From Gnetum montanum (lineage: Eukaryota > Plantae > Gnetophyta): a stretch of DNA of 64,000 nucleotides. Below, piece by piece: positions 13,298-64,000 of the stretch. The first letter of the stretch is position 1, and every line of letters starts with the position of its first letter. The notes beneath the pieces were generated by a model that was given only the letters and a program-made list of their open reading frames with translations, was not told the origin of the DNA and ran no database searches. Made by a program: the position numbers and the translations under genes. The stretch spans positions 292,902 to 356,901 of the forward strand of contig MNCI01001846.1 in the NCBI GenBank assembly GCA_015680685.1. Direction: 5' to 3'.

Positions 13298-14710
13298 TTG
13301 GCATCGTTGCTAGGGATGTATCTATTTGCTAGTTAGTTAATTTTTCAAAGCTCATTGTATCAAGAATCATCAAGTCCATGTTTTACACTTAAATAATTTT
13401 CTTAAAAGAATACATCCAAGCATCAAACACTTAACATGACTTCTACAACTAAGGAAAAATCTCCACCTACTATTGAATTGAATAAAAGTCATGACAAGGA
13501 TTATAATGAAGAAGAATGAAGTGCATAAATGCAAACCAAGATTTCCTATGCTCACACTGATCCTTACTATCCTAGCTTCATATTTTTTTTTCACCAAGAT
13601 GAACAACTTAGATGGAGAGATTTACACAACAACATGGTCTTGCCACTAGAACATTCAACATAATCAATGCTTCAAGCAACCCTTATGAGGTCAAAACTTG
13701 ACCATGTACAAGAAGCCTACCACATCACCAAACACATGACCAAGCCATACCAACCCACAGAGGCTCAGGCAAGAAAGGATGTTGTCATGAAGACAAGGCA
13801 TAAACATGACCAGGAAATGAAAGCACCTTAAATAATTTTCCTAGAAGAAAAAGAAGTTACGTTCCAAACTGAGAATTTTTATCAAACTCATGGGTCTCAT
13901 TCTCAAAGACCAATCATCTACATTAAATATCTTGTTAAGATTAAATTGCATTCAACTCTTGCAAAAACTCCTAGAAGAGATAACGAAGACTCTAGACTTA
14001 TGAAGAATTCAAGGTCTAAGACTTTGATTGAATCTAAAAGGGATGTATCAAGGAGTCACAAAAGGAGAATCAGCTGGCATCATTCTCCAACTCCTTCATC
14101 TTCTTCCTTTCATTCGTTTGGGAATTCTAGCAACAGAGAAAGATGACTAAGGGATCATAATGGAAAAACATGAAAAAACTATAAGAGATATGCATATCAG
14201 AGAAGGCATCTTGATAAAGTGGAAGATAACCATGATGAATAAAGAGAAAGGATTAAGCATGAAGAAAGAGAGTATCATGAGCATTGGAGGAGTCACTACT
14301 ATAATAGAGTTCACGAACCCCTAAACTATGAAGAACCCCTACTAGCCATTCAAAATATGATCAACATCAGGAAAGCTATGTGCATTCTTACTAGTCATGT
14401 AAGAGATAGTCACATCAAGCGACTAGACATGAATAACATTCAAAAATTTGAAGGTGGATATAATACTGATTCACAACACCATATCTAAGCCTTTCACAAT
14501 GCTTGTTCCCTCAAAAACATGAAAAATAATTAGTAAAAATTGAAGTTATTTTCTAGAACACTCATAAAGGAAGCAGAAAGCATGTACAAATCCTTACAAC
14601 TAGAATCCATTTGAAGATGGAATACTATGCTAGAGCTCTTCAATGACAAGTACCAAACTTATTCTAGAGTGTCCAATGTGAGAAAATAGATCTAAGGATG
14701 GAAGCAAGGA

Positions 14711-20700: not shown

Positions 20701-21821
20701 CCATCACAATTGCTCGTCCTGATGTAGGATGAAGGTGAAATCCACAGTGTAGGCATCTGGATGATGTCTTTATGCCTTCTTGCCTTTGAATAAATCCACT
20801 TACAAATGGTGATGGAGAATCCTCCCTGTGAAAAGAAGCCATATTAGTGATTTCTCAAAACTAGTGTGCGTTTAGTAATATTATGTTTTTTCTAATGATT
20901 TTGCTTTAAGTTTTCTTTTACAATGTTCTTAGGAAATTTCATGATCTTTCCTATGTAGCACACTTAGCTAACTAATGTCCCTAGCAACAGTGCTAATGAT
21001 GAGTAGCGAGTAGTCCCTACATCCAACCATACAAATCATAAGCATTGCACTAGTGATCAAGTCAAATTTTGTGGACTTTAGCTCCTAAATGCACAATAGG
21101 CAAGGTAGTGACTTAAAGACGTGATCATTATCTTCTTGGCTTCACTTGTGTAAGTGCAAGTGTATGGTTAAGTGTACATCAAGGCACATGATTTTTATTT
21201 ATATATTTATATTTTATTTTATTTTATTCTAAGTGTGGAACAAAGTAAATAATTGTGAATTAACTATCTAATGCTTTAATCTAATTATCCTAACATAAGC
21301 ATTCAAGTCCACCTTTCATGCACATCCTGAACTTGTTAGGAATGCTATTGGGTTATCAAGTATTAGGCTATTAGGTGAACTAAGTGATAACACTGCTAGG
21401 ATTATCATGTGTTAACAATATGTTTGAGGTGGTCATACTTATGTATATTTATTAACTGTATTAATTACCTATGGACATTATTGTAAAATTCATAAATAGT
21501 AAAGTGCATGAATGGAAATATTAAGCTTTCTTAAGTGCTGCAAGGAGTTCCAAGAATCTTGTCTTTATTGCTGGCACATCAAAGTGTTTAGGTTCATTAA
21601 TTTTTGAATAAGGATTTGTATAATTCTTGAAGTCCTACTATAGGAACTTAGAAAATATTCTAACTTTGATGGAAGAGAATTACAAGAACTTGGCTAATCT
21701 ATTGACTTAACATGCCATAAATGCAAGGGGTACATGCATTTATATAGGGAAAGATAGACACTATGTCGATGGGGCTATGTTGAGAAGGATGCATCAATGT
21801 AGCCCATTGAATGATTTATCA
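14711..21821 (-). mobile_element. Athila-type gypsy element B (gag-pol, degenerate) inserted in gag of A
   Basis: TSD AAGGA/AAGGG (14706-14710 / 21822-21826); removing B restores A gag GWKQG|IDKFFDATM. 5' LTR 20997-21821, PBS ~20978-20995, gag ATG 20842, protease LLESSSRVNLI, RT EVFMDDFS ~16950-16970, RNase H, integrase GVPRVVIFDNGMHF. The 3' LTR is kept only at 14711-~14989, followed by an internal deletion into integrase. Confidence 0.9.
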
Positions 21822-24800
21822 AAGGGATAGATAAATTCTTTGATGCAACAATGGACATGTACTATTCATTTTTTCATAGATGCCTTGGCCATAAATTTTC
21901 TCAAAGGAAATAACTCAGACATATCATCAATGGGTTGTAATATGCCCAAGGCATATTACATGAAATGATATCTCATCAAATTCAAAGACTCATTAACCAA
22001 GTGGTAAGAAAAGAAGAGCTAAGAAAAAAAATTCAATAGAAGAATACAACAGAGATCTAGAAATGAGAAAAGGGGATGTAAGAATATGTGAGTCACAAGA
22101 AGAAAAAACTTTGGAAGACATGATCCAATAAAAGACTCTACCAATTCAAAAATCGATTAATGACATTACAACAAAGGTAGAGAAAATGTGGGATTCAATA
22201 GATGAGAAATTTACTACAACACTAAAGATAATAGAGGAAAAGATTAAATAAGCCCTAAATAAAAGCAAATATAGAAAGAAAAGAAGAGATAATGAATAAG
22301 AAAATTACAGGAATAAAGGAAAAGTTGTAGTAGTAGAGGAAATAACAAGCTCCAATTTAAAAGATGACGAAGGATGTAAAGTGTGCTAGTGTAAACATCC
22401 TAAGTAATTTTGTTTGGTTATGGCCCACTTACGAGAGTTTGGGGCATATGTACCTAATCTAAAATTTTTCAAGAAACAAATACCTATATAGTTAACTTAT
22501 CAACAAGGTAATTTTTGAAAATCCTAGCAACAATCATACTATCCAAGTGGGGCTTATCCTTAACTGCAAGAACAATATCAGCAATAATCACAACAACCAC
22601 AAATGTGGGGAATTCCACTATCAAGGCAATAGTATCCATACATGTAACCAAATCCCTATGGATACTACATCCAATGTTTGATCTCTCCATGGAATACTTC
22701 TATTGAGACTTCATAACGCTACTATCCATTAGAGTATCATAGACTGGCTACCTCCCACATGGATCCAAACTCTTGCATACCCCAACCAGTAGCTATCTTT
22801 TCAATCCAATCTTTCAACAATTTACCACCGATACCACCACCAGTTATGCAAGAGGAACTGCCAACACAACCATATCAAAAGAGCACTACCATGATAGTCA
22901 CTACATAAGAGGTATGATAACAATTGAACTAAGAGCTAGGAAACATTCCTTCTTTAGGAAAAGTCTAGAAAAGGTTTGAAGAATGAAGAATTTACCTAAC
23001 TATGTCCCATCCACACAAATCCCTTAAGAAAATACTATGCTTCAAACATCCAAAGAGAAGAGCCTTAAAACTTTCATGCTTACGTAAGTAATAACCCATT
23101 AGATCAAAGCAGGAGCACTTCCTAAGAAAAGAACAAATCTTAGAAGTTCGTTAGTCTATCTTCAAATAGCAGGACATAAACAATGCAAGCCTCTATTGGA
23201 TTCTGGGTCAAGAGTAAATCTTATTTCACATGATATGTACAAAGCTTGGAATCTTCTCTCACTGAAGAAGAGTAAAATTTTATTAGAGCTTGTAGATCAG
23301 TCAATTGTTGTTCCACTTAAATAAGTGAAGGATGTAATCACTACCATGAGTGGTTAGTCTGATCCTACTAATTTCCTAGTTATACATGTGGGAAAGAACA
23401 AAGGGAGATTTCCCATAATCATGAAAAGAGCATGGCTTAGCATTATGGACATCAACCTTGGAATTAGAGACTTGTCCATGCAAATTTATGAGGATGAAGC
23501 TAGAGTTATCTAGAGATAGAGAATTCCATGTATCACATATAATAACAATGGGTGAAATTGTGAGGAGAAGATTTAGACCACAAAACACAAGAGTATTATA
23601 GCATGTAATAGATGTGTAGAATACATGTGTGTATAATAGTGTTTGTATGCAATAGTCACTAGACAAGAAAAAGAAGTAAAATCTAACATATGCTTGAAAC
23701 CTTTGGATAAAATTACAAGTGCCTATGTCGAAGAAATAGATAAGCTAGAATACTTAAGAAGATAACCTTCCTACATGAAATCATGATAAGCAAAGGACAT
23801 TGAATGGGGATATTTAGAGATAATAGAAAAGTACGAACTAGAACCTCTAGAACTAAAGGTCCTACTAGATGCACTAGAATATGCTTTTCTAAACAATAAA
23901 AAACCAACAATCATAAATGTCAATCTTGATAAAGAGCAAAGGAGAAAATTATTGGAAGTGGTGAATAAATTTTTGACTGCATCTACATGGTCCTATGATG
24001 GAATTACTAACATTGATCTATGCATCTATCAATACCAAATCTATATAGATCTAGCCATTAAACCACATCATCAACCTCAAAGAAGATTGAATCCCAAACT
24101 TAAAGAAATTATCAAACAAGAATTGGAGAAACTATTAAAAGCTGGGTTCATCTATCTCATAGTAGACATTAAATGGATTAGTCCATTAGTCATTATACCA
24201 AAGAAAGGTGGCAAGTGAAGGGTCTTCATTAAAGTTTGATTATTTGACATGGAAATATTCAACGATCATTTCCTTTTACCATTTGTTGACAAAGTCTTAA
24301 ATACCATTGCAAGACACTAGTACTATAGTTTCTTAGACAAATATAGGGGGTATAACCAAATCTGCATTGCACCAGAAGATTAGTAGAAGATCACATTTAC
24401 TAGTCCATGGGGAATATTTGCATACAACCAAATACCCTTTGGCTTGTGTAATGGTCCCACTACTTTTCATGACTTATGCTAAGTATCTTCCAAAATCATA
24501 TTGGCAATGAATTTGAAGTATTTGTGAATGATTTTTCTACATATAGGCTAGATTTCAAACAAGTGTTGGACCATTTAAAGTAAGTTTTGAAAAGATGTAT
24601 TGAAACTAATCTAAAGCTCAATTGGCAAAAGAGCCATTTAATGATTCAAGATGGCTCATTAAGGATTAGAGATAGATCTAGAAAATATCAAAGTCATTCA
24701 CAACATCACTTAATGATCATAAATAGTTAAAGATGTCAACTCATTTCTTGGCCATACAAGATATTATAGTAGATTTATTGGAAAATTTCAAAGTTTGCAA

Positions 24801-27800
24801 ACCTGCTAGTCGAACTAACAAAGAAAGATGCATCATTTCGGTGGACAAACAAAAGTGAGAAAGCATTTGAGACCCTAAAATAGAATTTCATCAAGAAACC
24901 AATCTTCTAAGCTCCGAATTGGTCCAAGCCTTTCTACATTATGGTAGATGTTTTAAAATATGCATTGAAAGCAATATTAACTCAACTTTACGATCAAAAA
25001 TGACCTTATTATATACACTGCACTAGCCAAAGCATCATCAGGGCACAAGTCAATTACACCACGACAGATAAGGACCTTATGGCTATGGTGTATGCACTTG
25101 AAAAATTCATACATGTGTTTGGGTACTCTATTTATGTCTATACTAATCATAGTGCTATTAGGTTTTTGATGACTAAACTAGCAATAAGTTCAAGAGTGAT
25201 AAGAGGGTTCACTATTTTGCAAGAATTTGACATTACAATGATTGATTGATGAGTGGCGGGTATCCCTACACTCAACGATACGAAATGAGTGTAGCATGCA
25301 CGATCCGGTCAAACTCCGCAGACTAAATGCCTAAACGTCGCAAGGAACACTTGGGGTTAATTAAGCATTGTCTTCCCAAACTTACTTGTTGTTGTCACGG
25401 TCTATGGTTAAGTAAGTTTGAGGTATATGATTTTTTTGGTCTTTTATGGCTTTTCTCCTATGCTATGAGGTAAAGGGTAGAGAGACTAAAACTAACTCTA
25501 ACTACAACACTAAGTCCTAGCGTCAGCATCCGTTCCCACTTATCGTACACACCCTGAACTGTGCAACTGTGGCTACCAAATGCTAATCGTTACTGGGATT
25601 ACCACACGTAACGCACGTGCTCGAAGCGGTCGTACTAAGGCACTTAACTACTCTAAGTGTGATAAGCAGTCGTTCCTTGGCTAGCTGTACACATTCGTAG
25701 ATGCTCGTAACCAAGTCGTACTTATTCCACGATCTAGGAGGAAAGGGTAAGAAGGCCTAATCGCGATGAGTAGCTAATTCCTTGATTAGCTGTACACATT
25801 CGTCAATGCTCGTAATCAAGTCGTACTCATGCCATGCTAACAACATGTAATAAATAACAATAAATAAAATCTATCCATGCACTACAAGGTATATCCACAA
25901 AGCTCATCTTTATTGCCGTACACAACTTGCGTTCAGGTACAAAGCTGCTTGAATAAAGATTCGTTCACTTGGGGACTCCTACTGCAGGCACATGGAAAAT
26001 TATTCTATCTCTGGAGTGATCAATCTGCCAGAGCTTCGCTACTTTATGCCTATTATTCTCAATAAGGGGAGTGACGCCTCTTATTTATAGATATGGCGGC
26101 TGATCGCGATATCGCGTCGGCTGTGATATCGCGTACACAATATCACGGCTCATGCGATATCCCATCCCATCATACCCCCATGACTAAATGAAAACTCGTC
26201 CTTGAGTTCATTACAATGATATCGAGTAGGTATGGAATTATTGAGGGAATGGAACTAATGGGATGACATGTGAACAGATCATTATTACAAGACTTGACAC
26301 AAACTGGTGTTCATGACAACAAGGGTGAACACCTTATTACATTGACATCAGGCCACATTTGGTAGCTGAGAGAAAAGAGGAGAGAGAAGAGAAGAGAAGA
26401 AGAGAGAAGAGTCTTGCTGCTGCCAACACCTAGATTGTGCTTTTCGTTGTCCATCCGTAAGTGCATCATCAATCCTACTCCTTACATAACTACTTTCAAC
26501 ACTGTTCCATTCCAAGTGCTTTCTCCAAATCCGGTCTGTTGTTGTATGATTGCCATCTGCACACACAACACAGTCATGTATTAGCAAGGATAAATGAATT
26601 TCAATGTAGTTATACCTTGCTTCGGTGTAAGTCCTTTGGCTGGGTTGTGGTATGGCTGATACGGATCTGGGATTGTATAGATGATGACTACCGAAGGTGT
26701 AGGGGTTAGGAAGAGAAATGAAAAAATTCGGGGCTTAGGAGAAAAATCAAAAAATCAGGCCCTGTACCCCCATGACTAATCGCGAACCTCTGGTAGCGAA
26801 AGAATGGAGAAAGAAAAGGAGTAGGGAAGAGAGATAAAGCTAGATAACTAGGACATCGATAAAAGAGATGTCAAGATGGAAATGAACAAAAGAAAATTAA
26901 TTGCAAAATGTTAAGGAAAAGAAGTTAACAAATGCACCAAATAGGAGTGTCAGTGGGTCCTCCCCAAGTAGGTTCATGCCCTTAGTGCCCTGACAATCCC
27001 ACATTCAAAGAGTCTGTAGGCTCTGGGAATGTCCTTTGGAACAAGAGTTAAAGTCTTAACCATAAGAATTTACCAAAAAGAAAACAATGTATCTACAAAA
27101 ATATACACTAATGATACAATCGGCAATGAGGTGAACGGTGGAGAGAAGAGTGGAGAGAAGAGGATGGAATGGAATCCCAAGGACAAGGTGGTGTATAGCC
27201 CCTTGTGTATTACATGGTTAATGTGACTTGGCAAATCTCATTCCAACTCTGGCCTCAAACCAACCACATCCAGTGACTTCGCATTAATACATTTGGCCAA
27301 ACCATCCACTTGGAGTAACAAGGATGCATCTCCAAAAGCCACCACCATTCTGACGAAACAAAGGAGAGAATGGGAAGCGAGAAGGGCCGTAGTTAGAGGG
27401 AACACTTTGGTTCCATAACCAGTGCTTGCAGCCCAAAGTTATTTCATCTAAGGGGTGTGCTTTGAATCCTCACTTTGGCTTTTTTTTTTGTGTTTTGTGT
27501 TTTTATGCATGGGGACCACACCATGCAAAGACTTCTTATTTTTATTGTCTCAACTTCCGAAGAATGGGTAACATCGGAACGGTAAGAAAACTTAAGAAGA
27601 AAAAATCCAAGCACCCAAGTGAACAGCCAACACAACTGCATCAAGTTCCCTTGAAGTCACACCCTTTTCAAACCTTGAGTCCTTCCTTAGTTTGATAAGT
27701 ACTCAGTCACCGATTCGTTAAAGTTTTTATGAAAAAGGGAACTGCACATTTCCAACCCAAGAGAAACCATAGACTTTGATGGATGAATGGATGAAGTGGA

Positions 27801-28199
27801 CTCATTGCTTGCCATATCAAAAGAACATACCTTAGTGTCAACATTGTAACTTAAAGGTAAAAACCAAACATTAGCAATCAATGAAAAATAGTTCATTCCA
27901 TTGGACCAAACACTTATTGGTTGACGAACTTACATGGTGGATGTCACACATACACATACACGCAACAAAATGAAAAAGTATAACGATGATGTGAAACAAA
28001 AATAAGAAAAGTTAAAGAAATTTGTAAAACAAAAACAGAAAAAGTTAAAGAAATTTGTAAAACAAAAACGTGTAAGATAAAAATGTGTAAAAAAAAAACT
28101 TAAAAAGGAACTAAGGGCCCCATATGGTTAGCATAGGTGGCCATCTCCCCCATGACTAAGTTGTAAGGGAGACCAAAATACGGAGCGCCTGTTTGAATT

Positions 28200-31100
28200 T
28201 CATAACAGTGCCCAACTTCTCCCTGCTGATGTTCTTAGGTTAAGGGATGGAAGTTGGCGACGCTCACGTTCCAATGTATCTATGCCACGGTTGTTAGCAT
28301 GAGTTATCTCCTTAGTTCGTTCCATGCATACTTGCTTGCTCCCTTGAGTAGCTATCAACCATTGGGTGTCTACTATTGGTTGTGAGGTTGCTACATACAG
28401 GCATCTTTGTGTTTCACTTTCAAGGGAACACCTATTACATGGAGACGTTCCCTCCATGTCATCACCCAATGAATCACTGTATGTGATGCATGGAATCTTC
28501 TTCTTCTCGATCTTTCCGTAAAAGTTCATCTTAGAAATCTGCAAGGAAAGATCATGGATACCTAGGTACGCATCTATAGTGCTTAGCCATGGTCTTCCCA
28601 TTATAATGGGGAAGTTCCCTTCATTATTTACCTTGATCACTAGGAAATTGGCTGGGTATGACCACCCACACATAGTGGTGATAACGTCCTCCACCAATCC
28701 TAAGGGAATGGTAATGGACTGGTCAGCCAGCTCTAATTGTATGTTACTCTTCTTAAGTTGGGGCAGGTTCCAGTCTTGATACATCTTTTGTGAAATTAAG
28801 TTGACTTCAGAACCTGAGTCAAGAAGAGCTCAATGTGGTGCATTTCTGGCAATCTACAAATAAATTAAGGGACTCCCAAGATCAGATAGTTTCCTAGGAA
28901 GGTGGCCCACCTTTATCCAGTCAGTTATGGTATGTGTTAACATAACCGTTTGCGTACTTAGTTGTTGGACTGAAGGGTTCTCCGAAGCGTTAGTGGTTAG
29001 AGGCCTATACATGTACTCAACCGCTTGTTGTTGCGAGAGTTTGTCGAGGCTCCTGGTTCTGAAAAAGGGTCTCTTCTTTGTACAATTACAATTGGCAAAA
29101 CAAGTACCCGGTTGGCTATCTACACACTGTATATTTACAGCTCTCACGGCGTTGCGTTGTTGTGGTTGGGTAGGTAACTCCCCTTGCATTGTTGGAACAG
29201 GTTGTATGGGAGCTACAGGTGGAAGAGGTGAGGGTGGAGTTAGAGGATGGGATGCATGTGAGATATCTCCCGAAGGAGAAGGAGTCCTCCTGAAGTACTC
29301 CTGAACTTGGTAGTGATGTTGGGGAGTGTTGTGACCCATAGAGTCACCTAGAGAAACCGGCTGCTGCACATAATATCCATAAGGATCGGGTTGTTGGTAA
29401 GGGTATTGATGTGTTGGCGGTGGCATCCCCCATGATTGTGGATGTTGCCACTGCTGATGTTGTCCGATAGGCTATGGAGGCGTTCCACTTGGATAATACG
29501 TTAAGGGTTGGTGGAACTGCCTTGGGTTACCTTGTGGATAAGGTAACCTTCGGGGTGTTTGCCGTTGATTAAGTCTTGGATTTAATGCATACACCCCAGA
29601 CTCCTGCAGATGTGAGATAATTGGGCAACATCCCTTGGGATGTTCATAGTAGCAGACCTCACATCCACTATCATCATCTGTCTCAGAGTTCACAACATCA
29701 TCGGGGATAGGATTTTTCCCCTTACCCTTGTTATGTGCAGGGTTTAAGTTTCTCTTCTTAGTTTTTCCTTTGTCACTACCTTGTTCTAACTTAGACTCTT
29801 CTACAATTTTTAAAACGGTTTCCATCCTTGAGTCTAAGTGATCCCACATTTGGTCCATCTTGGCCGATACCTTGATTATTAACTTTTGGATCGGCAAGAT
29901 CTTCCAGTTCACCAACTCTTCGAGTGGTGACTCATCCTCCTCATCACAAAATTTCACTCCCTTCTTGCGAAGGGAGGAGTCACGATTATACTCTTCTGCA
30001 CTTTCCCGTTTACGTAGCTCGCCCTCTTCTTGCGCTACTTGTTCCAACAAGCTTTCTACTTCATGGGCTCTAAGTTTAGCAAGTCTCCCTTGGGCATAAG
30101 TCCCAAGAGTCCTTCTCGTTTCATTCTGAAGCCCATCCACGATGTGGCGAAGTTGATCCCGTTTAGCGTACCCATGGCCTGGGCAACGATGTAACAATGT
30201 GTAGTAATGGGCCATGGCAGCATCCAAGGGCTCATAAGCACCTTGTTTCCAACCTTGGATCTACTTCCGCAAGTTAGACACTCTGGAGTACGTCTGATAT
30301 TTGTTGTTAAACAGTTCTAGCATCGTACTCTACCTCCTGATGGTTTCCAGTTCTAAGGACCGGTACCAGCTTTCTGCTTCTTTAGTGAGTGTCCTTGGGA
30401 ACAACTTAAGTTTCTACCACTCATTATCAATATTCTGCAAGGTACAAGCATCGTGGAATGCCTGTAAATGATGTTGAGGATCAGCGTTGTATCCCCCTTC
30501 AAAACGTGGGATATTATTTATGTCCAACTGCTTGATCCTGCTATCTTTCAAATGCCTTGTGGGGATCCTAACTGCCTCTGTGATATCAAGCATGCTTCAG
30601 GTTATGAGTAGAGGCTCGTCATGATCATTTCTATCATGACGTCTGTGATGTCTTCGTGTTGGTTCCCTACTCTCCCTACGTCCTTGCCCTTGTCCTAACT
30701 CCTCTCGACCTTCCTATCGAGGTCTTTCATCTACTTTACTTTTACCCTCTCCGTTGTGCTCATGATGGCTGTGCCCAGATGTGGAAGGAGAGTGTGAATG
30801 GTGCGATGAAGGATAAGAGGAAGGGGATCCATCACCACGGTGGTGTTTCTTACCTTCTCTTCGGCTGCTTTGGCCCCGATCGTTATAACAATCTAAGTGC
30901 CTATCCTTAGTGTGAGTGGTGGTTTCCACCATGAACAGTTGGTTTTCACGGGGATCAGAGCCTGTAATATGTATAGTTGATCGTAGGCCTTGATGCCTAA
31001 CCTCTTCACCGTTGTGAGGAGGGGGAACATCGTTTTCTAAGAAACCCGCTATGAGGGGCTCTTCGTCTCTTATTTCACTAAGGACATGGGAAACCTTACC

Positions 31101-31472
31101 CTTCAACAGTGTGTGTTGGCTCTCTTGCCTTTCGTCCCTCATACGTTGCAAAGCGGTGGGATGATAATCCCTTATATCATATTCTCCAGCAACGTATTCA
31201 GCGAATAAGTCCTGCATGCCAATCTGTGCTAAGGCACGGAAGAGCATGCTTGGGACAGATCGATCTGGTGGTAACACTATGTTACCAAACAAATCTCTCC
31301 AGCGCAACTATTCATCCTAATGGAGGATAAAAGTGTGATCAGTAATATACTCATCGAGATGAGTATAAACTATCTTATACTGCGTAGGACTTGGCTGATT
31401 TGGGTTATGTGTTTGGTGCTGACTGTCTTCTGTGTTATTCCTAGATGAGTTAATCTTTTGAGAAGAAGCCAT
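28200..31472 (-). pseudogene. gag-protease polyprotein of element C (several premature stops)
   Basis: Starts MASSQK at 31472; LRWRD N-terminal domain, His/Arg/Asp-rich linker, gag core (KLFPRTL, IQGWKQG), CEVCYYEHPKGC motif, P/Q-rich region, protease LLDSGSEVNLI...IIMGRPWL; ends at stop 28200. Internal stops are mostly explicable as C-to-T changes. Confidence 0.88.
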
Positions 31473-32269
31473 CTTATCGATGTGCTGTCACCATTAAATA
31501 TGTTCTTAATTAACTAATCAACCCAAAGGTTCATTAAGGCTCCCAACGATGTGAAAGATTCCTAATGTTCTAATTGGCGTACAAACACTTAGTCCCCAGC
31601 AATGGCGCCAATGATGAGTGGCGGGTATCCCTGCACTCAACCATACGAAATGAGTGTAGCACGCACGATCCGGTCGAACTCTGCAGACTAAATGCCTAAA
31701 TGCCTCAAGGAACACTTGGGATTAATTAATCGTTGTCTTCCCAAACTTACTCGTTGTTGTCATGGTGTATGGTTAAGTAAGTTTGAGGTATATGATTTTT
31801 TTGGTCTTTTATGGCTTTTCTCCTATGCTATGAGGTAAAGGGTAGAGAGAATAAAAATAACTCTAACTACAACACTAAGTCCTAGCATCAGCATCCGTTC
31901 CCACTTACCGTACACACCTTGAACTGTGCAACTGTGGCTACCAAACGCTAATCGTTACTGGGATTACCACATGTAACACATGTGCTCGAAGCAGTCATAC
32001 TGAGGCACTTAACTACTCTAAGTGTGATAAGCAGCCATTCCTTGGCTAGCCATACACATCCGTAGATGCTTGTAACCAAGTCGTACTTATCCCACGATCT
32101 AGGAGGAAAGGGTAAGAAGGCCTAATCGCGATGAGTAGCCGATTCCTTAATTAGCCGTACACATTCGTCAATGCTCGTAATCAAGTCATACTCATGCCGC
32201 GCTAACAACATGTAATAAATAACAATAAATAAAATCTATCCATGCACTATAAGGTATATCCACTGATGG

Positions 32270-32402
32270 GACGTGATATCGCATGGGCCGCGATATCGTG
32301 TATGCGGTATCACGGCAGTCCCGATATCGCGTACGCGATATCGCGTTGTCCCCTGTGATATCGCATACGCGATATCATAGTCCGTCGCAATATCTATAAA
32401 TA
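32270..32402 (+). promoter_or_regulatory. LTR U3 array of GCGATATCGC-like palindromes with TATA box (element D 5' LTR)
   Basis: About eight GATATC-centred units followed by TATAAATA at 32395-32402. Equivalent arrays at 40155-40290, 26082-26165 (minus), 41353-41440 (minus), 3055-3064 and 63943-63992. Confidence 0.75.
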
Positions 32403-33262
32403 AGAGCGGCTCTCCCTTATTTGACATCCCAGTTTTAGAGTAGCGAAGCTCTGGCAGTTTGATCCCTCCAGAGTTAGTTTATTTTCCAGTGTATGCCTGC
32501 AATGTGGTGAATGTGGTTGTACGGTGTCTTTATTCGAGTGTGCTGTACTTGGACACGCACATGACCGACAATAAAGATCGAGATTACTTCATCATTGTAG
32601 CATTCACTTTGTCATTTATTTACTTGTTATTTATTACTTTCATAGCATGGTGTAAGTACGACTTGATTACGAGCATCTACAGATGTGTACAGCTAGTCAA
32701 GAAATCGGTTGCTTATCGCAATTAGTCTCTCACCCTTAAACTCCTAGAAGAAGAATGAGTACAACTTGGTTACGAGCATTTAAGTGTGACTACTTGGTAG
32801 CCCAGTGGCATAGCCAAGATCTGCGCTTGGTAATCCCAGTGGTGTATTCAGGATCTACACTTGGTAATCCCAGTGGCGTACCTAGGACCTGCGCTTGGTA
32901 GTCCCAATGGTAGTCGTGCACGAAGTCCAAGATGTGTACGGTTGATCAAGGAATCGGTTGCTCGTTGCACTTAGGCTAGAATAGATTCTCTTACCCTTTC
33001 CCTCTTAGCTTAGTTTAGTTAATATTATTTTTCCACTATCATCAGGAGTAGCAATAGAATAGGAACACATCATACACCTCACTCTAGACTAAACCATACG
33101 TGACATATGATAAATACTAGTCCAGGTGAGAAGACAGCGAACTGTGACCTAAGGTTAACTGTCTAGGTGCCACAACTAGTCCGTCTACGGAGTTCAACCG
33201 GATCACATGTGAAACGCTCGTATTCGTATGGTTGAGCGAAGGGATACCTCGTCGCTCATCAT

Positions 33263-33280
33263 TGGCGCCGTTGCCGGGGA
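33263..33280 (+). other. Primer-binding site complementary to the tRNA-Asp 3' end
   Basis: TGGCGCCGTTGCCGGGGA, one base after the LTR's terminal CA; typical of Athila elements. Confidence 0.9.
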
Positions 33281-33402
33281 CGATGCTAGTTATCTAGATT
33301 ATTTAAATCATACAAGGTCGCTGTAAAGAACTTAACGATATATCTCTTAGAAAGAAGAAATAATTTTAAAAGTCATGCATAAATTCACACACAACTCCAA
33401 AC

Positions 33403-35393
33403 AATGTCTCTCCTACAAGATAATCATAACGCCACACTTAGTGAGGAAATTCATCGGAGAACTAACGAATTATATGATGATGAAGATTGGAGTATACAAC
33501 CTGAAGTGGGAGTTTCTTATAAAAATAAAGACGAACAAAAACAATGTCATCACAACACATGAAGACATAACTTACCTAATGACGATGAACCCCCACTAGC
33601 CACTACAAGCTTAACACAAATACAAGAGGCTGTTCGAATCTCACGTAGGCATCATAAAGAGAGCCGACTACCCAGGCTCGATTTAAATAACTTTCCTAAA
33701 TTTTCAGGAGGCTATGACTTAGATCCACATCAACATTTACTAGCCTTCTACAATGCCTGTACATGGAATAATATTGATAACAGTTGGCAAAAACTTAAGC
33801 TCTTTCCTATGACACTTGTTGACCAAGCTAAAGTATGGTATAGATCGTTAAAACCAACCTCGATACGATGCTGGTCAACAATGGTAGAAGTCTTTAATGA
33901 AAAATATCAAACCTACGCTGGAGTGTCAGCCTTGAGGAAACAAATCCAAGGATGGAAACAAGCAAAACATGAACCCTTGGACATGGCCTTAGAAAGATAT
34001 TATGCACTGTTAAACAACTGTACAGGCCATGGGTTTTTCAAGGAAAGGATAATGTATCATATCATTGATGGGCTACGTAATGAAACAAGAGAGACTTTAG
34101 GAACATATGCCCGAGGTCAATTATACAACCTATGAACCCATCAAATCCAAGAGCTTATTAAGCAGGTAGCAAAAGAAGAAGGAGAATTAGCCAGATGGGA
34201 GAGTTGAAAAACATCAACAGGACCAAAAAAGTAACTCAACAAAGGTCCATGATCATAACAAGGAGAGATCAACAAATCTCAAGGTGGAAGTATCATCTTT
34301 GACAATACAACAATCGTTAGAAGAAGCAGAGGCAAAGATCAACAAAATGTTGGAGCAGATGTATCAAAAGTGTGGGGAGTATATCAACAACATTGGAGAT
34401 AGAGTTTTAACAACCCAAGAAGTAGGGCAAAATAGTAGACATTCAGAGAAAAAGAATAAAGGGAATAAGTGCTTCACTGCCAATCCTATGGATGAATGCA
34501 ACATATGCCTGTACGATCACCCCAAAGGCCAATGCCCAATATTGTTACATCTACATGAGCATTGGGAAAACACGTTACATCCAAAGTTCGTACAGAGATA
34601 CTGTGTTAGACCACAGTGGCAACAAACCCAGTCATGGGGGAGACCATCCTTAGACTAGAGGCACCCTTCAAATTTTCCGAATCCAAATGCTTATTACGTC
34701 CAACATCCTGTTTCTACATTTGGGCCACCATACTCTATCTCACCACAATACCATTCTCCACAATACTATCAGCCCATACTTCCAACACGACCACCACCTT
34801 ATGCACCTTCTATTCCTCCTAACTTCCAACATTCTTATCCTTTCCCTCCTTCCACAATGCCACCAACTGTTCCTAAGGTGTTTGTGCCACCGCAACAATC
34901 CACGAACAACACTTGTGCTACTGCTACCAACAGCAGTGAGCAACCTCAGCAGCATCAAAGGCGTCCTTTCTTTAAACACGGTCGTAGGAAGGGACAACAT
35001 AATTCTGAGGCCACTGCATCTTCTAACCCAGCACAAGTTCCACATTGTGGTGCACCCTTACCTTTGAACACAATGCCTCATGTAACTTCATCAGGGCCAT
35101 CATCAAATGCTCCAACAACCATACAGCCCAATGAACACAATCATGGGAGGCATCAACCTAATCCTTGCATACCATCTAACGGTCACAAACATCATAGTGG
35201 ATCAACTCGTTATCTGGAAACTACATCGTATAAAGTGCCCCACTATGCTCATTATTATGAAGTGTGTGAAATCCAAGGGGATAAGTATGGACCGATTTCA
35301 ATATTTCCAATATGCAAGGATTCTCATTTCCCATTTATTAATCCTTGCCATACTCAACCGTTTAGTTATGGGGGATATCCCCCATTTCAATAA
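33403..35393 (+). pseudogene. gag of element D (disrupted; start approximate)
   Basis: KLKLFPMTLVDQAKVWYRSL...IQGWKQ, CNICLYDHPKGQC and RRPFFKH, all homologous to the A/B/C gag. Stops (e.g. 34133) and frameshifts; no protease follows. Confidence 0.85.
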
Positions 35394-36764
35394 CAAGCAG
35401 GATTAATAAATATATTTTTTTTATTTTCTTTTATTTTACAACTTTTTATTTTCCATTTTTTCATTTTTCAACTTTTTGTGTGTGTTTGTGTTTTATGTTT
35501 TTGTAAGTAATCTTATCTATGAATAAAACACTCATGTGGATCATTGGTTGAGGTGTGTTTTATGTTATTAAGTCATGAGTGATCAATTATTTTGGAACAG
35601 TGAGCCCATTGCATCCACTCATCCACTCTATCGATAAGAGGTTCTGTCTAAGGGTACAGTGATATTCTTGAAATTTCTAAAACTTACAATTAATTTTGTG
35701 TCATTGTACCCAGAATGAAGAAGGATGGACCAAGAGGGAATGGTTAGGGTGTGACAGCAAGGGGACTTGTGGATTCTCTTTGGTGTCATCTGTGGATGTT
35801 ATCATGTAACTTGGTTGTACTAAGATCCTTGTAAATCTAATGAAAAATGGGAGTAAGAGTAATCAAAAGGGCACTTGAAAATCAAACGCTATTCTAGAAG
35901 GTCCCACTGGAAAGACATGCACCCATGCCTGAAGGTTGGCGGTTTCTCTAGATTCAGTAAAGTGAAAAAGAAAAAGAAAAAGAAAAGAACAACAAAGTGC
36001 CATAAAACAAAAATCACTCCTCCCTTGTACTAAACGCCAAGTGATCGTACGCCTTGTTGCTATGGTACTCTCATAGTTGTTCATCATGGGATGAACCAAT
36101 GCGATGTCACTGTTTGGAAGGATGGATTTGGTCTTGATCTTGGAATGACGGGTTAATGACACATTAATTATGCTTTACATGCAGGATTCATTGTGCCTTG
36201 AGTCAATTACCTCATGTCCCAATTTCTACAATCCCTTTCTATAGTTTATCTCATCTCACTATTCGTGTAATTGTAGCACATGTCCCATGTAGCATAGAAT
36301 TTTCATCTCATTCTGGTGATATTTACCTGTGTGTGTTTTGTGGAGTTAGTGCAGATTACCTCTAACCCTTCTAGTGCCCACGGACACTTTAAGTGTGATT
36401 ACACAAGGGCATAATAGGTTGAAACCTACTTTGGGGAGGATCCACTTGTGTAATTTTGTTATAATCTTCATTAATTCTATAGCTAGAACACACAATTTCT
36501 TACCCTTAGCTTGCGTTTACATAACTTTCTTTCCCTATTATTATCCCTCTTAATTTTCAGTTCCAATGTACCATTAAATTCCCTTTTCTTCATAACCCCC
36601 AAAATTAAAATTGTTAAAATTCACATCATTATCATTCATAGTGCCTTTAAACTTCATGTAATTACCCTTGAACACCTTTATGCATGCTAATGTCCTTCAT
36701 ATTTTGCCTTAATTTCAGAAAAATCATTAAAAATTTCGATCTTTTGGAGTGTCTCACATTAGTA

Positions 36765-36830
36765 GGGACAAGATATCGCGTACGCGATGTATCGTACACG
36801 ATATCGCGTCCCCTATTCCTATAAATAGGG
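36765..36830 (+). promoter_or_regulatory. Putative internal promoter for ORF2 (GATATCGCG motifs + TATA box)
   Basis: AGATATCGCGTACGCGAT...CGATATCGCGTCCC followed by TATAAATA at 36820-36827; same layout as the LTR U3 array. Confidence 0.6.
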
Positions 36831-37148
36831 TACCCCGCCGCTACACTTAGCTTCATTTTCAAATTTCTGCGAGGGGAGTTGTTGAATTTTTTCTCTGCGA
36901 CTTGCGACTGTGTGACCCTTGATTTTTCCATCATATCTCGCGCACTGGTGCTCCGATTTTTGTTCCGTTTGAACCTGCTTGAACCCAGAGTGTTCAGTTT
37001 AGTTGTGGGGGAGAGACACTTATCGAAAAGTGCTCAAATTTTTTGAAATTTATCATTGCCCAAGGACATCAATTAGGGTCATTAACTTAACACTTAACAT
37101 AATTGTGCCGAATATTATATACCCCTTAAGTACACCGGAAGATTAGCA

Positions 37149-39977
37149 ATGAACCCACTTAAGTTATAGGACTTATCATTTTACCTTTCAGGCAAGATCA
37201 CACGATATAATATCTAATCTTTAATTAAGGCAAGTAGTAAGGTATAACTTAATTCTCCAAACAACCTTGTCGGACAACATGCAGAACATGAGGTACACTC
37301 ATTTAGCATCCATCAGGAAGAACCTCCTACCAGATGATCTGAGCAGGTAGAAGGAGAAGTTGCTGCTGCACCTGAACCGGGACAACAACTCACATTGTCC
37401 CAAGAATGTGTTCAGGCTATCCACAAGAAGTCCACATTCGTTGTAGTGATTGTGGAACTTAACTTCGATTCTTTTGCAGAGTTTGCTCCTGAGGCTGTTA
37501 GGGATCACCTCAAAGGGTCTCCCTTATGGCCTGTCCTCTCGACAAGCAGTGCTTGGTACTTAGGTGAAATGTACCAGTTCTGGCACAATAGGGAACAAGG
37601 CACCACAGTTAACATTGGTGGTGTGATAGTAGACTTTTCTGCACAGGCGATTTCAGAAGTGCTTAACCTTCCGAATTTAGGACCCCACGTTGCTCGGTTA
37701 TCTACCTAATCAGACCCTGATGTGCGAAAGGAATGGCTAGAGAAGGCTTACGGCAGAGATAAGGCTTTTGGCGAGCTGACAACGGAAGAGCGGATCTATT
37801 TCAAAATCAGAACTTATCACCTCTTCCCCACAAAAGGTTTAAAAAGAATATCGACGTATGCGGTAAGAGGATGTGCAGTGTTGATGGGAAAGGTTAATGC
37901 TAACCTACCCCATCTATATTTAACGGAGATCCTAAGACGGTTTGAAAAATGGAAGACAGGAAAGATGGCATTGCCTTTCCCCTGTCTTATTAGAAAACTG
38001 TGTCAGTGGGCTGGTATTGGGGGGTACACCAATGACGTCCTCCGTAAGGCCCAACAAGCTTCCTATGCTGAATTGTTAAAAGCGCTAGCTCCAAGGAAGA
38101 GTACTGGCAAGGAGCTGGAACCCGAAGAAGAAGAAGAACAAATGACTGGACCACCTGCAACTCAACTTGCAGGACCCAGCCAAACTCCAGCCATGGGTCC
38201 CAGCCAACAACAAGAGGAAGCAAGACTTAGCACAGGTCAGGATCAACCATTGCGCCAAGACTATAGACTATCAATGAGCCATCTCAAGGCTATCACTGAG
38301 ATGGTCAGTTGGGGAAGTCATGATGACACAAGTCTCTTCCATGTCATCGATGATGCCGTTCAGCCTACAATCTCATTGGATCACATAAAAGGTGAAATAT
38401 CCATCCAAACAGGAGGAGGGGAAAATGAATGGTCACAACAGATCTCTGGGAACGCGGCATCATTTCAAGTGCAGTTAGAGACTGGTGAAGGTGCCACTGT
38501 GGTGGTCATGCAACACCAGAATGCCGCGGGAGCTGTTGAGGTGGTCACTGACCACATCAAGGAATCATTTAATGTGCCTGTTGTGCCACAGGCAGATCTT
38601 TTAGAAGCAAAAGATGCTCAAACTCTTGCCAGAACCTCAATGTCTCCTGCAGAGCATGAGGATGCATTAGACAGGTTGCTTCAAATAGAACAAACTTTGA
38701 CGTCCCTGTTTGACATCCCTGAGGATGTCACGGCAATTCAGTCAGACCTCATCTCTACCAAGGGGAAGCTGGTCATCTCTGAAGTTAGGGCGGAGCATGC
38801 TGAAGCAGAAGTACACAAATTACAAGAGCAGCTCACAGCCTTGCACGCAGCACAGTGGAATCCTTTGCAATTTGTTCCCGCAAACCAGCTCAAAAACTTC
38901 AGAACTGAGCAACTGACTAAACTAACTGCAAAAAATAAAAAGGTGGCTGAGGAAAAGGAGAAGGCTGTTTGGGATTCCTCAGTAGTTGAAGCGCAAACCC
39001 ATGCGCACTTTAAGGCACTCAAAGCCTTAGAAGAGGAGAATAAGAAGTTGGTTGCAGATAATCTCCGGTTGACATTTGTAGAAAAACAAAAGAATGTTCT
39101 CAATGAGCACTTTCATCAACTTCGGGAACAATTCATTCGAGTCAACCGTGATGTGAGTCATTTAGCCAGGGAGAATCGAACCCTCTCGATGGAGGAGGTA
39201 TGCACCATTCGCCAGAATTCAGCAATTGAAATCAGCGCGTGGCAAGATGAAGCTAAACAACATGAAAAGCTGAAGGAGCACTTCCGTGATCAGGTGGGAA
39301 TGTACAAACAAATCCTGGAAAAGGAGATCCACATGGCCAAAGCTCAGATAAATAATCTTAGTGCCCAAGACACTGATTGGAGGACCATTGTGGACACTTA
39401 TGCCTTCGCCCATCAAGCGGAAGTTAAAAACCAGGACCTGCAAATCCAAGATTTGATAGAATACATGGAGTTGGCAAACCTTAGATATGCCAACCTTGCC
39501 ATGTTAACAGTAGGACACTGGAGATCAGAGCTGGAGCAGCAGGTAGCATCCACTCATCTCAAATATGAAACAGAATTTATAGAATGTAAGAAACTGGTTG
39601 AAAAATTGGACATTGTAAATTTTGAGCTCGAGGTGGTTAAAGCAAGCTATCAGGGACAAAAGGATGTGTCAACCAACCTGGCTCGACAGCTAACAAACCT
39701 TCATGAATACAAAGATAAAGCTAGAGCCTATGAAGAGGAACGACGGGTGTTCGTGGCATGGTACGTCAAGGCCAATCAGATGTTTCCACAACTACCATGT
39801 TCGTGGGAGGTGCTGACTCCATCAAACATAGGAACACTTGCATGGACGGCACAGGACCCTCAGACTGAAGAGGAGAAGCTCCAAGCTATTCTTCAACGCC
39901 ATCAAACTTCCAGGATTGGAGCACACGACAAAGGAAAGACACCTATGGAGGAGCCACCACCACTAGGAACTACATGA
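37149..39977 (+). CDS. Accessory env-position ORF2 of element D: plant-transposon-protein-like N-terminal domain plus long coiled coil; open from 37710 to 39977
   Basis: One frame from ATG 37149, with stops at 37167, 37215, 37245, 37335 and 37707, then >750 open codons. Motifs VNIGGVIVDFSAQAISEVLNLP and LPFPCLIRKLCQWAGI recall the Athila ORF / putative plant transposon protein domain. C-terminal half is heptad-rich and ends near DKGKTP. Confidence 0.8.
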
Positions 39978-42025
39978 GTTCCTCATTTTTGTAAATAGTG
40001 TAGCATTTTTTCTATGTTGTGTCTTTCCCACACTGCGGAGTTGTATTTCACTTTTTCAGTTAATAATCCCATACCTATCCACTGTGTAATTAATGGAACT
40101 TGTTCTCCTTGTAACTCGAGGACGAGTTTTCATTCAGTTGTGGGGGTATGATGGGACGCGATATTGCATGGGCCACAATATCGCGTACGCAATATCACGG
40201 CCGTCACGATATCACATTTCCCGCGATATCGCGTTGTCCCCTGCGATATCGCGTACGCGATATCGCAGTCCGCCGCAATATCTATAAATAAGAGCGACTC
40301 TCCCTTATTTGACATCCCAGTTTTAGAGTAGCAAAGCTCTGACAGTTTGATCCCTCTAGAGTTAGTTTATTTTCCAGTGTCTGCCCGCAGTGTGGTGAAT
40401 GTGGTTGTACGGTGTCTTTATTCGAGTGTATCGTACTTGGACACACACATGATCGGCAATAAAGATCAAGATTACTTCATCATTGCAGCATTCACTTTGT
40501 CATTTATTTACTTGTTATTTATTTAATGTTATTTATTGCTTTCATAGCACGATGTAAGTATGACTTGATTACAAGCATTTATGGATGTGTACGACTAGTC
40601 AAGGAATCGGTTGCTTATCGCGATTAGTCTCTCATCCTTAAACTCCTAGAAGCGGAACGAGTACTACTTGGTTACGAGCATTTAAGTGTGACTACTTGGT
40701 AGCCCAGTGGCGTAGCCAGGATCTGTGCTTGGTAATCCCAGTGGTGTATTTGGGATCTACACTTGGTAATCCCAGTGGTGTACCTAGGACCTGCGCTTGG
40801 TAGTCCCAATGGTAGTCGTGCACGAAGTCCAAGATGTGTACGGTTGATCAAGGAATCGGTTGCTCATCGCACTTAGGCTAGAATAGATTCTCTTACCCTT
40901 TCCCTCTTAGCTTAGTTTAGTTAATATTATTTTTCCACTATCATCAGGAGTAGCAGTAGAATAGGAACACATCATACACCTCACTCTGGACTAAAACATA
41001 CGTGACATATGATAAATACTAGTCCAGGTGAGAAGACAGCGAACTATGACCTAAGGTTAACTGTCTAGGTGCCACAACTAGTCCGTCTACGGAGTTCGAC
41101 CGGATCGTGCGTGAAACGCTCGTATTCGTATGGTTGAGCGAAGGGATACCTCGCCGCTCATCATCCACAAAGCTCGTATTTATTGTCGTACACAACTTGC
41201 GTTCAGGTACAAAGCTGCTCGAATAAAGATCTGTTCACTTGGGGACTCCTACTGTGGGCACATGGGAAATTATTCTATCTCTGGAGTGATCAATCTGCCA
41301 GAGCTTCACTACTTTATGCCTATTATTCTCAATAAGGGGAGTGCCGTCTCTTATTTATAGATATGGCGGCTGACCGCGATATCACATACGCGATATCACA
41401 GGGGAAGACGCGATATCGTGGCTCATGCGATATCGCGTCCCATCATTGATAAAAAAGGGATTCAAAATATTGTAGTAGATTACTTATCAAGGTTAAGATG
41501 GGAATTTTAGGAAAATGACGAACTAGTATCAAATCAATTTCTTGATGAAAATTTATTCACAAGAACAACAATTGTTGTAGACTCAATAGTGAAGTTATGA
41601 ATCACTAATTATATGACATATCTTACTACACAAGAGCTTCTTGTTGAATGGGATAAGAAACAAAAAAGAAAAAAGAAAAAGAAAATAGTTTCTCCACAGG
41701 GTAAAAAGGTATATGAAAATTAATGGAAACCTCTATAAAATATGTGTTGACAGGTTGATAAGATGATGCCTTTTAGAAGAAAGTCAACAAAGGGTCATAC
41801 AAATTGCACATGAAATCAATTTCTATAACATTTGCTTTTCCTAGATGTCTTTTTCCTTTTTGAAATCAATCTTCTTAACCATAAAAAGGAATTGGTATTA
41901 AGCAGGTAGGAAGACTTACATTCATCCAATTACATAATATAATTTTCCTAATTCTTGCAACTTTTGCCATTGTGAAGGGCATTTGTTTAATGTTTGTTCT
42001 TTTCTACTAAAAAAAGAAGAAGTTG

Positions 42026-63916: not shown

Positions 63917-64000
63917 TGATGAGACGCGACTTGCACTGGGCCACGATATCGCGTACATCCCATGCGATATCGCATACGCGATATCGCGTCCCGCCGTCAT
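63917..64000 (+). mobile_element. 5' end of another LTR of the GATATC-array Athila family (continues beyond the window)
   Basis: TGATGAGACGCGA...GGGCCACGATATCGCGTAC...GCGATATCGCATACGCGATATCGCGTCCC, like the LTR starts at 2975, 32264 and 40149. Confidence 0.85.

What the first reader, a model, noticed from the sequence alone, without database searches (positions are those of the whole stretch)
36765..39977. Accessory ORF2 has its own internal copy of the LTR promoter module (GATATCGCG palindromes + TATA)
Seen: ~3.5 kb downstream of the 5' LTR, D carries AGATATCGCGTACGCGAT..CGATATCGCGTCCC followed by TATAAATA. This is the same motif-plus-TATA layout as the LTR U3, placed ~320 bp upstream of the ORF2 frame. 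I see the motif cluster nowhere else outside LTRs, and C, which lacks ORF2, has no such cluster at the equivalent position. Known: env-position ORFs of plant gypsy elements are usually thought to be expressed by splicing or subgenomic RNA. Inference: ORF2 is a separately transcribed unit co-regulated with the LTR by whatever binds the palindrome. One speculative possibility is that ORF2 protein itself binds it, as a transactivation or sequence-specific anti-silencing loop analogous to VANDAL VANC proteins.
Basis: partly seen in the sequence, partly recalled or inferred. Interest (0 to 1): 0.8.

Follow-up and report, generated by a model that had tools for sequence, protein, structure and literature searches.

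The report
LTR promoter copy before retrotransposon ORF2
A plant jumping gene carries a second, shorter copy of its own promoter signal (palindromes plus a TATA box) in front of an extra gene, which likely lets that gene be switched on separately; a similar layout is already described in an unrelated group of plant jumping genes.

Summary
Element D (32264-41163) is a decayed Ty3/gypsy LTR retrotransposon, Athila-like, with gag but no pol. It carries a 48-bp dyad of LTR-type GATATCGCG units (36765-36812) and TATAAATA (36820-36827) upstream of an ORF2 with a Transposase_32-like domain. The motif-plus-TATA pattern occurs four times in the window: three LTRs and here (0 of 100 shuffles). Other copies in two organisms share the module. 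It heads a CpG-rich stretch. Sister element C keeps both flanking anchors but lacks the module and ORF2.

Corrections: ORF2 starts about 450 bp after the TATA, not 320, and is broken in D. Other copies have a splice acceptor directly before its start codon, so splicing and an internal promoter are not alternatives.

Best reading (0.55): an internal promoter feeding a spliced ORF2 mRNA. No start site was seen, and poly(A) reads show no step at the TATA. The main rival is env-style splicing from the LTR (0.27). The VANC-like loop has no direct support (0.06).

Sireviruses (Ty1/copia) have the same layout (PMC2829016), so this is a gypsy variant of a known kind, with an intact internal TATA. Two word searches of this scan's notes found no earlier match.

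The parts
32264..33262 (+). 5' LTR of element D. U3 palindrome array 32273-32378 (7 units), TATA at 32395, AATAAA near 32571, poly(A) site at 32591
   Evidence: poly(A) loose ends behind 32591 in 110 (X22) and 68 (X23) reads
33126..33131 (+). only strong splice-donor-like word found in D's LTR/leader (candidate distal donor of the rival model)
   Evidence: pattern scan of 32421-33570; use not shown
33263..33281 (+). primer-binding site, TGGCGCC type (tRNA-Asp assignment recalled)
   Evidence: Calypso and Diaspora use tRNA-Asp (PMC1142308 passages)
33563..35393 (+). broken gag; no protease, RT, RNase H or integrase follows
   Evidence: PF03732 E 1.6e-12; ORF list
36765..36812 (+). internal palindrome cluster: two GATATCGCG units and a worn middle unit, forming a 48-bp dyad with GGGAC/GTCCC ends as in the LTR array
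   Evidence: predicted single-strand hairpin -12.9 kcal/mol
36820..36827 (+). TATA box TATAAATA; its CTATAAATA starts 19 nt after the start of the last unit (23 nt in the LTRs)
   Evidence: bridged by contigs of other copies
36828..36998 (+). CpG-rich stretch after the TATA (predicted start site and 5' leader), not LTR-like
   Evidence: 9 CpG against 2.7 expected at the spacer rate, P 0.002, boundaries chosen by eye; shared in DNA runs X1 and X11
36999..37015 (+). internal PPT-like copy, also present in C at 26779 (minus strand)
37217..37268 (+). conserved block with donor-like words (GC at 37230, GT at 37242); predicted 5' end of a short intron before ORF2
   Evidence: high DNA depth in X1 and X11; same GT word in C at 26615, 16 of 500 shuffles
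37268..37269 (+). break in D: other copies carry extra sequence here with a branch-point-like word, a YAG acceptor and a start codon
   Evidence: loose ends in X1 (36), X11 (9), X21 (12) and X24 (8+8+11)
37269..39977 (+). ORF2 pseudogene. N-terminal Transposase_32-like domain, acidic low-complexity middle, coiled-coil-like C-terminal half, no transmembrane segment; stops at 37335 and 37707
   Evidence: PF20167 E 3.2e-11, 43.9 bits against a cut-off of 45; highest 19-residue hydropathy 1.27 and crude heptad windows
40134..40148 (+). terminal polypurine tract
40149..41163 (+). 3' LTR of D (K2P distance to the 5' LTR 0.073); 5-bp target duplication at 32259-32263 and 41164-41168
25247..41446 (-). 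element C, into whose 5' LTR D inserted. Sister family, gag and protease only; lacks the module and ORF2 but keeps a donor (26615), branch word (26584), acceptor (26557) and ATG cassette

Best explanation
This Athila-like retrotransposon carries a shortened copy of its LTR palindrome array plus a TATA box about 450 bp upstream of ORF2, and this module likely acts as an internal RNA polymerase II promoter that makes a separate, probably spliced ORF2 mRNA. Steps. (1) Shown: the module exists, is LTR-derived in sequence, is shared by other copies in two organisms, heads a CpG-rich stretch and is absent from ORF2-less C. (2) Inferred: transcription starts about 25-35 nt after the TATA. (3) Inferred from splice signals: a short intron just before the start codon, perhaps with a further upstream intron, is removed. 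(4) Inferred: the mRNA ends at the 3' LTR poly(A) site, whose position in the LTR is shown by reads. (5) Inferred: the same factor, most likely a host transcription factor, reads both arrays, so genomic RNA and ORF2 mRNA rise together. Copy D itself cannot make ORF2.
For: The cluster is non-random and keeps LTR-like TATA spacing. Of 16 listed contig pieces (17,450 in all), two from run X1 run from inside the cluster through the TATA into about 100 nt of non-LTR sequence, with 17 and 21 differing letters, so they come from other copies. At 36831, 54 contigs of X1 and 46 of X11 (organism F) show one shared differing letter, up to 50 and 37 letters from their ends. The flank just upstream is poorly shared: bins 36688-36751 have depth 1,517-3,732 in X1 and 113-177 in X11, against means of about 80,000-99,000 after the TATA. 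CpG observed/expected is 0.94 after the TATA against 0.29 in the spacer and 0.41 in ORF2. C has both anchors but neither module nor ORF2. A donor-like word close to the acceptor is kept in D and C; C shows a complete 59-nt donor-branch-acceptor-ATG cassette, and a local intron needs a nearby first exon. In stranded run X21 the sense/antisense ratio is 0.11 upstream, 0.60 after the TATA and 7.6 in ORF2. Precedents: Sirevirus motifs before ENV (PMC2829016); Grande gene23 has its own promoter (PMC7264820).
Against: No start site was observed: one search shows no pile of sense starts near 36850, though these libraries do not capture 5' ends. In the oligo-dT run X24 depth is 4.9 upstream, 3.7 after the TATA and 47 in ORF2, so there is no step at the TATA and no continuous first exon. 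No local splice joint is among the 6 joints. No listed contig links module and ORF2 on one molecule. C keeps the splice cassette without the module. The donor match between C and D is weak alone (16 of 500 shuffles), and 54-59 nt is short for a plant intron (recalled). The X21 shift rests on a depth of about 12 and on reads mostly under 90% alike (247 of 331). Arabidopsis ATHILA ORF2 is described as spliced from the full-length RNA (PMC7197481). The absence control is one element.
Confidence: 0.55

Rival explanations
1. ORF2 mRNA is spliced env-style from an LTR-initiated transcript to the acceptor before its start codon. The internal array is kept as an enhancer, a chromatin-opening site or a hairpin and small-RNA target, not as a start site.
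For: The acceptor sits directly before the start codon in other copies. Poly(A) depth jumps at ORF2 and not at the TATA. A donor-like word lies at 33126 in the LTR. ATHILA ORF2 is stated to be spliced (PMC7197481) and Bagy2 splicing is reported (PMC7264820). Sirevirus LTR palindromes are siRNA hotspots (PMC4728375 abstract).
Against: It does not explain an intact TATA at LTR-like spacing, the CpG-rich stretch behind it, or the conserved local donor. No LTR-to-ORF2 joint is among the 15 of 59 joints or the 12 of 85 'letters between' rows shown; hidden rows could hold one.
Confidence: 0.27
2. The module is a neutral relic: a U3 fragment copied inward once by template switching and carried along passively by the ORF2-bearing subfamily.
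For: It resembles the LTR array and its GGGAC/GTCCC ends. Extra units appear in some reads and contigs, as in unstable arrays, though these may be LTR-derived (table 5c). D is dead.
Against: The adjacent upstream flank is far less shared than the module and its downstream sequence in both organisms. CpGs persist where the rest of the element lost them. Homology stops exactly at the TATA, with no R or U5 remnant.
Confidence: 0.12
3. ORF2 protein itself binds the palindrome and activates or un-silences both its own promoter and the LTRs, like VANC of VANDAL.
For: Circumstantial only. There is no transmembrane segment, so it is not an env-like membrane protein. A nuclear signal is predicted for the sunflower PF20167 protein (PMC11728184). 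The Athila domain and VANC are both modelled as coiled-coil pentamers (PMC13547354). CpG retention is local to the arrays, as VANC's CG effect is local (PMC5735166). C, which lacks ORF2, has the same LTR motif and could be a target in trans.
Against: No DNA-binding family matched in Pfam, and no VANC or PMD family. No binding or methylation data exist. CpG retention is equally expected for any selected host-factor site. The VANC21 motif is AT-rich (YAGTATTAY), whereas this one is CG-rich. A CGCG core resembles host CAMTA sites (recalled).
Confidence: 0.06

Closest known systems
Sirevirus (Ty1/copia) repeated motifs, Bousios et al. 2010 (PMC2829016)
   Same: Palindromic CG-rich units arrayed in the LTR just before a conserved TATA and forming CpG islands; extra copies upstream of the env-position ORF, present in 9 ENV-bearing and absent in 4 ENV-less elements; an internal promoter was proposed.
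   Different: Here the superfamily is Ty3/gypsy; the core is GCGATATCGC, not CGG-CCG; the array starts at the very 5' end of the LTR; and the internal copy has a full TATA box, whereas that paper could not conclusively identify an internal promoter.
Athila/Calypso/Bagy-2 env-position ORF2 (PF20167, related to PF03078; sunflower Athila 14 aORF, PMC11728184)
   Same: [quoted passage not shown]
   Different: Usually described as spliced from the full-length RNA. I found no report of an LTR-motif-plus-TATA module before it. This ORF2 is about 900 codons with a long coiled-coil-like half and no membrane segment. D has no pol.
Maize Grande gene23 and Retand antisense ORFs (PMC7264820, PMC11963269)
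   Same: Accessory ORF of a non-chromovirus gypsy element transcribed from its own promoter; nuclear protein, regulatory role proposed.
   Different: Those ORFs are antisense and carry TRP28 (PF04195); the passages read do not describe their promoter as a copy of the LTR module.
VANDAL VANC anti-silencing system (PMC5735166)
   Same: Transposon accessory gene plus short motifs repeated in non-coding parts of the same element.
   Different: DNA transposon, unrelated protein family, binding and hypomethylation shown by experiment. Here none of that is shown.

Membership tests
LTR retrotransposon, Ty3/gypsy non-chromovirus, Athila lineage | Paired LTRs, target duplication, PBS and PPT | tested here: met
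   LTRs 91.6% alike, 5-bp duplication, PBS and PPT in place
LTR retrotransposon, Ty3/gypsy non-chromovirus, Athila lineage | Retrotrans_gag domain | tested here: met
   PF03732 E 1.6e-12
LTR retrotransposon, Ty3/gypsy non-chromovirus, Athila lineage | RT phylogeny within Athila | not testable with these tools
   D and C have no RT, so the label is Athila-like only
LTR retrotransposon, Ty3/gypsy non-chromovirus, Athila lineage | tRNA-Asp primer site | tested here: inconclusive
   PBS seen; its match to tRNA-Asp is recalled, not aligned
LTR retrotransposon, Ty3/gypsy non-chromovirus, Athila lineage | Sense ORF2 of the PF03078/PF20167 group | tested here: inconclusive
   PF20167 E 3.2e-11 over profile positions 24-176 of 177, but 43.9 bits is just under the cut-off of 45
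Sirevirus RM system | Ty1/copia element with Met-tRNA PBS | tested here: not met
   PBS differs from the Sirevirus TATCAGAGC; gag is PF03732
Sirevirus RM system | CGG-CCG core in the palindrome | tested here: not met
   core is GCGATATCGC
Sirevirus RM system | Palindromes before the LTR TATA and again before the extra ORF, with CpG enrichment, absent when the ORF is absent | tested here: met
   only one ORF-less control
env-like membrane protein | Transmembrane segment | tested here: not met
   highest 19-residue Kyte-Doolittle mean 1.27; D lacks the first codons
Internal Pol II promoter (Grande gene23 kind) | Mapped start site or reporter activity | tested here: inconclusive
   stranded ratio shifts after the TATA, oligo-dT depth does not; no 5'-end library
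VANC-type anti-silencing factor | Homology to VANC or PMD families | tested here: not met
   no such Pfam match at E 0.1; no fold comparison was made
VANC-type anti-silencing factor | Sequence-specific binding and induced hypomethylation | not testable with these tools
   needs EMSA, ChIP or methylome data

The most novel reading that the evidence does not exclude
PF20167-type ORF2 is a sequence-specific DNA-binding activator or anti-silencing protein that reads the GCGATATCGC array in front of its own gene and in every family LTR. That would be a Tat- or VANC-like feedback loop in a plant LTR retrotransposon, which ORF2-less copies such as C exploit in trans, and it would give the env-position ORF of Athila-like elements a function and a defined target.
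Probability: 0.06. Interest if true: 0.85.

Novelty: new variant of a known kind. Interest (0 to 1): 0.42.

Why it matters
How the extra ORF of plant LTR retrotransposons is expressed, and what it does, is still open. If this module fires, gypsy and copia lineages have independently copied their LTR palindrome array in front of the extra ORF. This family would then offer a compact, testable case: about 60 bp with an intact TATA and a natural negative control. It would also mean that 'spliced from the LTR' is not the only route for Athila-type ORF2. The array gives a defined probe for asking whether a host factor or ORF2 binds it.

Tried and rejected
No host genome is held, so the genome-wide co-occurrence test could not be run. 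Homologue search with the 755-aa open part of ORF2: 0 of 7,992 candidates at near length; its first 130 residues among shorter proteins gave 1 of 42 (P0001, 134 aa, unnamed), too little for an alignment. Metagenome scans found no locus: 87 pattern hits and none confirmed, 0 matches to the module pattern. The run search listed no RNA holder. No profile search of protein representatives, no Atlas look-alikes and no fold were obtained, so a remote DNA-binding fold remains open. The sigma-70 scan does not apply to a plant. Rejected: nested solo-LTR remnant (no R/U5 homology); ORF2 start at the ATG of 37150 (out of frame); membrane env. DNA contig depth was used only as a rough guide to sharing, because the tool warns that it is no copy number; the motif bins 36752-36815 were left out of the argument because LTR reads cross-map there (loose ends). 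PMC3276544 passages held nothing on an Athila internal promoter. PMC311225 is not held. Two word searches of earlier findings gave nothing that bears on this.

Full report
Anatomy. Self-comparison of the window and the sequence show element D at 32264-41163. Its LTRs are 91.6% alike (K2P 0.073), with a 5-bp target duplication, a PBS and a PPT. Inside are a broken gag (PF03732), no pol, a 1.9-kb spacer and a frame of about 900 codons whose N-terminal part matches PF20167 Transposase_32 (E 3.2e-11, just under the curated cut-off). D sits in the 5' LTR of a sister element C on the minus strand (K2P 0.075), which has gag and a protease remnant only. The LTR palindrome array lies before the LTR TATA, and poly(A) tails attach at 32591, so the array is in U3. 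The Athila label rests on the PBS type (tRNA-Asp recalled), the ORF2 domain and the layout; there is no RT to place on a tree.

Observation. Of 6 clusters of the 10-mer palindrome in the window, 5 are LTR starts and one is this site; 0 of 2000 simulations gave such a pair. Motif plus TATA occurs 4 times, against 0 in 100 shuffles. The cluster is a 48-bp dyad resembling the LTR array, and the likeness stops at the TATA. C keeps both flanking anchors (0 of 500 shuffles each) but lacks the module and ORF2. ORF2 is broken in D.

Other copies. No genome is held and both metagenome scans were empty, so I used public runs (24 listed, 20 DNA holders in 7 studies, six coded organisms). On 36560-37519, 13,262 contigs of X1 (organism A, possibly the window's own source) and 4,173 of X11 (organism F) were laid. 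Two of the 16 listed pieces run from inside the cluster through the TATA into non-LTR sequence with 31 or more letters on both sides and 17 and 21 differing letters. A third, from X11, has only 21 letters on the left and is not counted. At 36831, 54 and 46 contigs share a differing letter, up to 50 and 37 letters from their ends. The flank at 36688-36751 is far less shared than the sequence after the TATA. So the module belongs to the family and is not peculiar to D. No listed piece is long enough to link module and ORF2. CpG observed/expected is 0.94 in the 171 bp after the TATA, against 0.29 in the spacer and 0.41 in ORF2 (9 against 2.7 expected, P 0.002, boundaries chosen after looking).

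Loose ends at 37252-37274 in all four runs show that other copies carry extra sequence that D lacks, with a branch-point-like word, a YAG acceptor and a start codon. Just upstream lies a block shared by both organisms with donor-like words at 37230 and 37242. C has the same GT word at 26615, a branch word at 26584 and an acceptor at 26557 followed by ATG, a 59-nt intron; the frames after it are short. The donor match alone is weak (16 of 500 shuffles). ORF2 mRNA is therefore probably spliced, and the question is where its first exon lies.

RNA. Four raw-read runs of organism A were laid on 32264-40148 and two on the promoter region. Most reads come from other copies (in one search, 247 of 331 and 159 of 203 are under 90% alike). 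ORF2 is transcribed in sense: in stranded X21 the sense/antisense ratio is 7.6 in ORF2, 0.60 after the TATA and 0.11 upstream (sense direction taken from the LTR poly(A) signal). This fits an internal start, but the depth is low. The oligo-dT run X24 goes the other way: 4.9 upstream, 3.7 after the TATA, 6.8 on the donor block and 47 in ORF2. That fits splicing at the acceptor but shows no step at the TATA. It can be reconciled with an internal start by a short first exon, weak 5' coverage or divergence of the expressed copies; it fits LTR splicing equally. No splice joint of either kind was listed (6 of 6 joints; 15 of 59 shown), and D's missing acceptor makes it a poor reference for them. RNA does not decide the matter.

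Mechanism. I put 0.55 on an internal promoter with a spliced leader, read by the same, most likely host, factor as the LTR; 0.27 on LTR-initiated splicing with the array in another role; 0.12 on a neutral relic; 0.06 on ORF2 binding the array. ORF2 has no transmembrane segment and a coiled-coil-like C-terminal half by crude scans, and no DNA-binding, VANC or PMD family matched. No fold or remote search was obtained, so this stays open.

What is known. PMC2829016 (passages and section 9 read) describes the same layout in Sireviruses: palindromic CG-rich motifs before the LTR TATA, and extra copies upstream of ENV in 9 elements that have it and none in 4 that lack it; an internal promoter was proposed but not identified. 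Its supplementary figures were not seen and may show TATA boxes near ENV. PMC4728375 (abstract and opening) links LTR palindromes to siRNA. PMC7264820 (parts 1 and 2 of 3) reviews spliced sense ORFs and Grande gene23's own promoter. PMC7197481 (passages) states that ATHILA ORF2 is spliced. PMC11728184 (passages) reports PF20167 in a sunflower Athila ORF with a predicted nuclear signal. PMC11963269 (passages) proposes DNA binding for TRP28. PMC5735166 (abstract and first part of Results) defines VANC. PMC13547354 and its preprint (passages) model Athila-domain pentamers. PMC1142308 (passages) gives the tRNA-Asp PBS. Searches listed no report of this module in a gypsy element; the library lacks most subscription papers.

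Verdict. A real, family-wide cis-element, probably an internal promoter, in a dead copy. It is a gypsy counterpart of the Sirevirus layout with the added feature of an intact internal TATA: a new variant of a known kind, interest 0.42.

Noticed in passing
window 26615-26300 (minus strand): C keeps a complete donor-branch-acceptor-ATG cassette followed by short, broken frames unrelated to ORF2, so the spliced slot may hold different cargo in sister families.
   Followed up: partly
window 34630, 35362, 36999, 40134 (+); 28159, 26779, 26187 (-): Several PPT-like copies per element, one at the end of the gag or gag-protease frame and one just downstream of the internal module's position; recalls the multiple PPTs of Sireviruses.
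   Followed up: partly
window 32264-32394, 40149-40280, 41360-41446, 26082-26172, 63917-64000: The U3 array begins within about 10 bp of the LTR start and varies from 3 to 7 units between copies; D's two LTRs differ in array structure.
   Followed up: partly
window 2998-3834: An LTR of the same family, mostly an N gap, interrupts what looks like a Ty1/copia RT region.
   Followed up: no
window 36869-36900: Purine run followed by a pyrimidine run just after the predicted start, strongly shared in organism F (bin depth 439,916); looks like an RNA hairpin in the leader by eye, not folded.
   Followed up: no
window 36000-37100: Run X21 shows strong antisense signal over the spacer, with 144 molecules beginning at 36226; may be read-through from host genes or internal priming.
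   Followed up: no
window 14300-25150: Nested remnants of related gypsy elements (three gag hits and two longer mutually similar stretches); none has ORF2 or the motif cluster.
   Followed up: partly
window 37183-37199: A further acceptor-like word (pyrimidine tract then CAG) 50 nt before the donor suggests a possible mini-exon and a second leader intron; the region is shared in organism F but hardly in X1.
   Followed up: no
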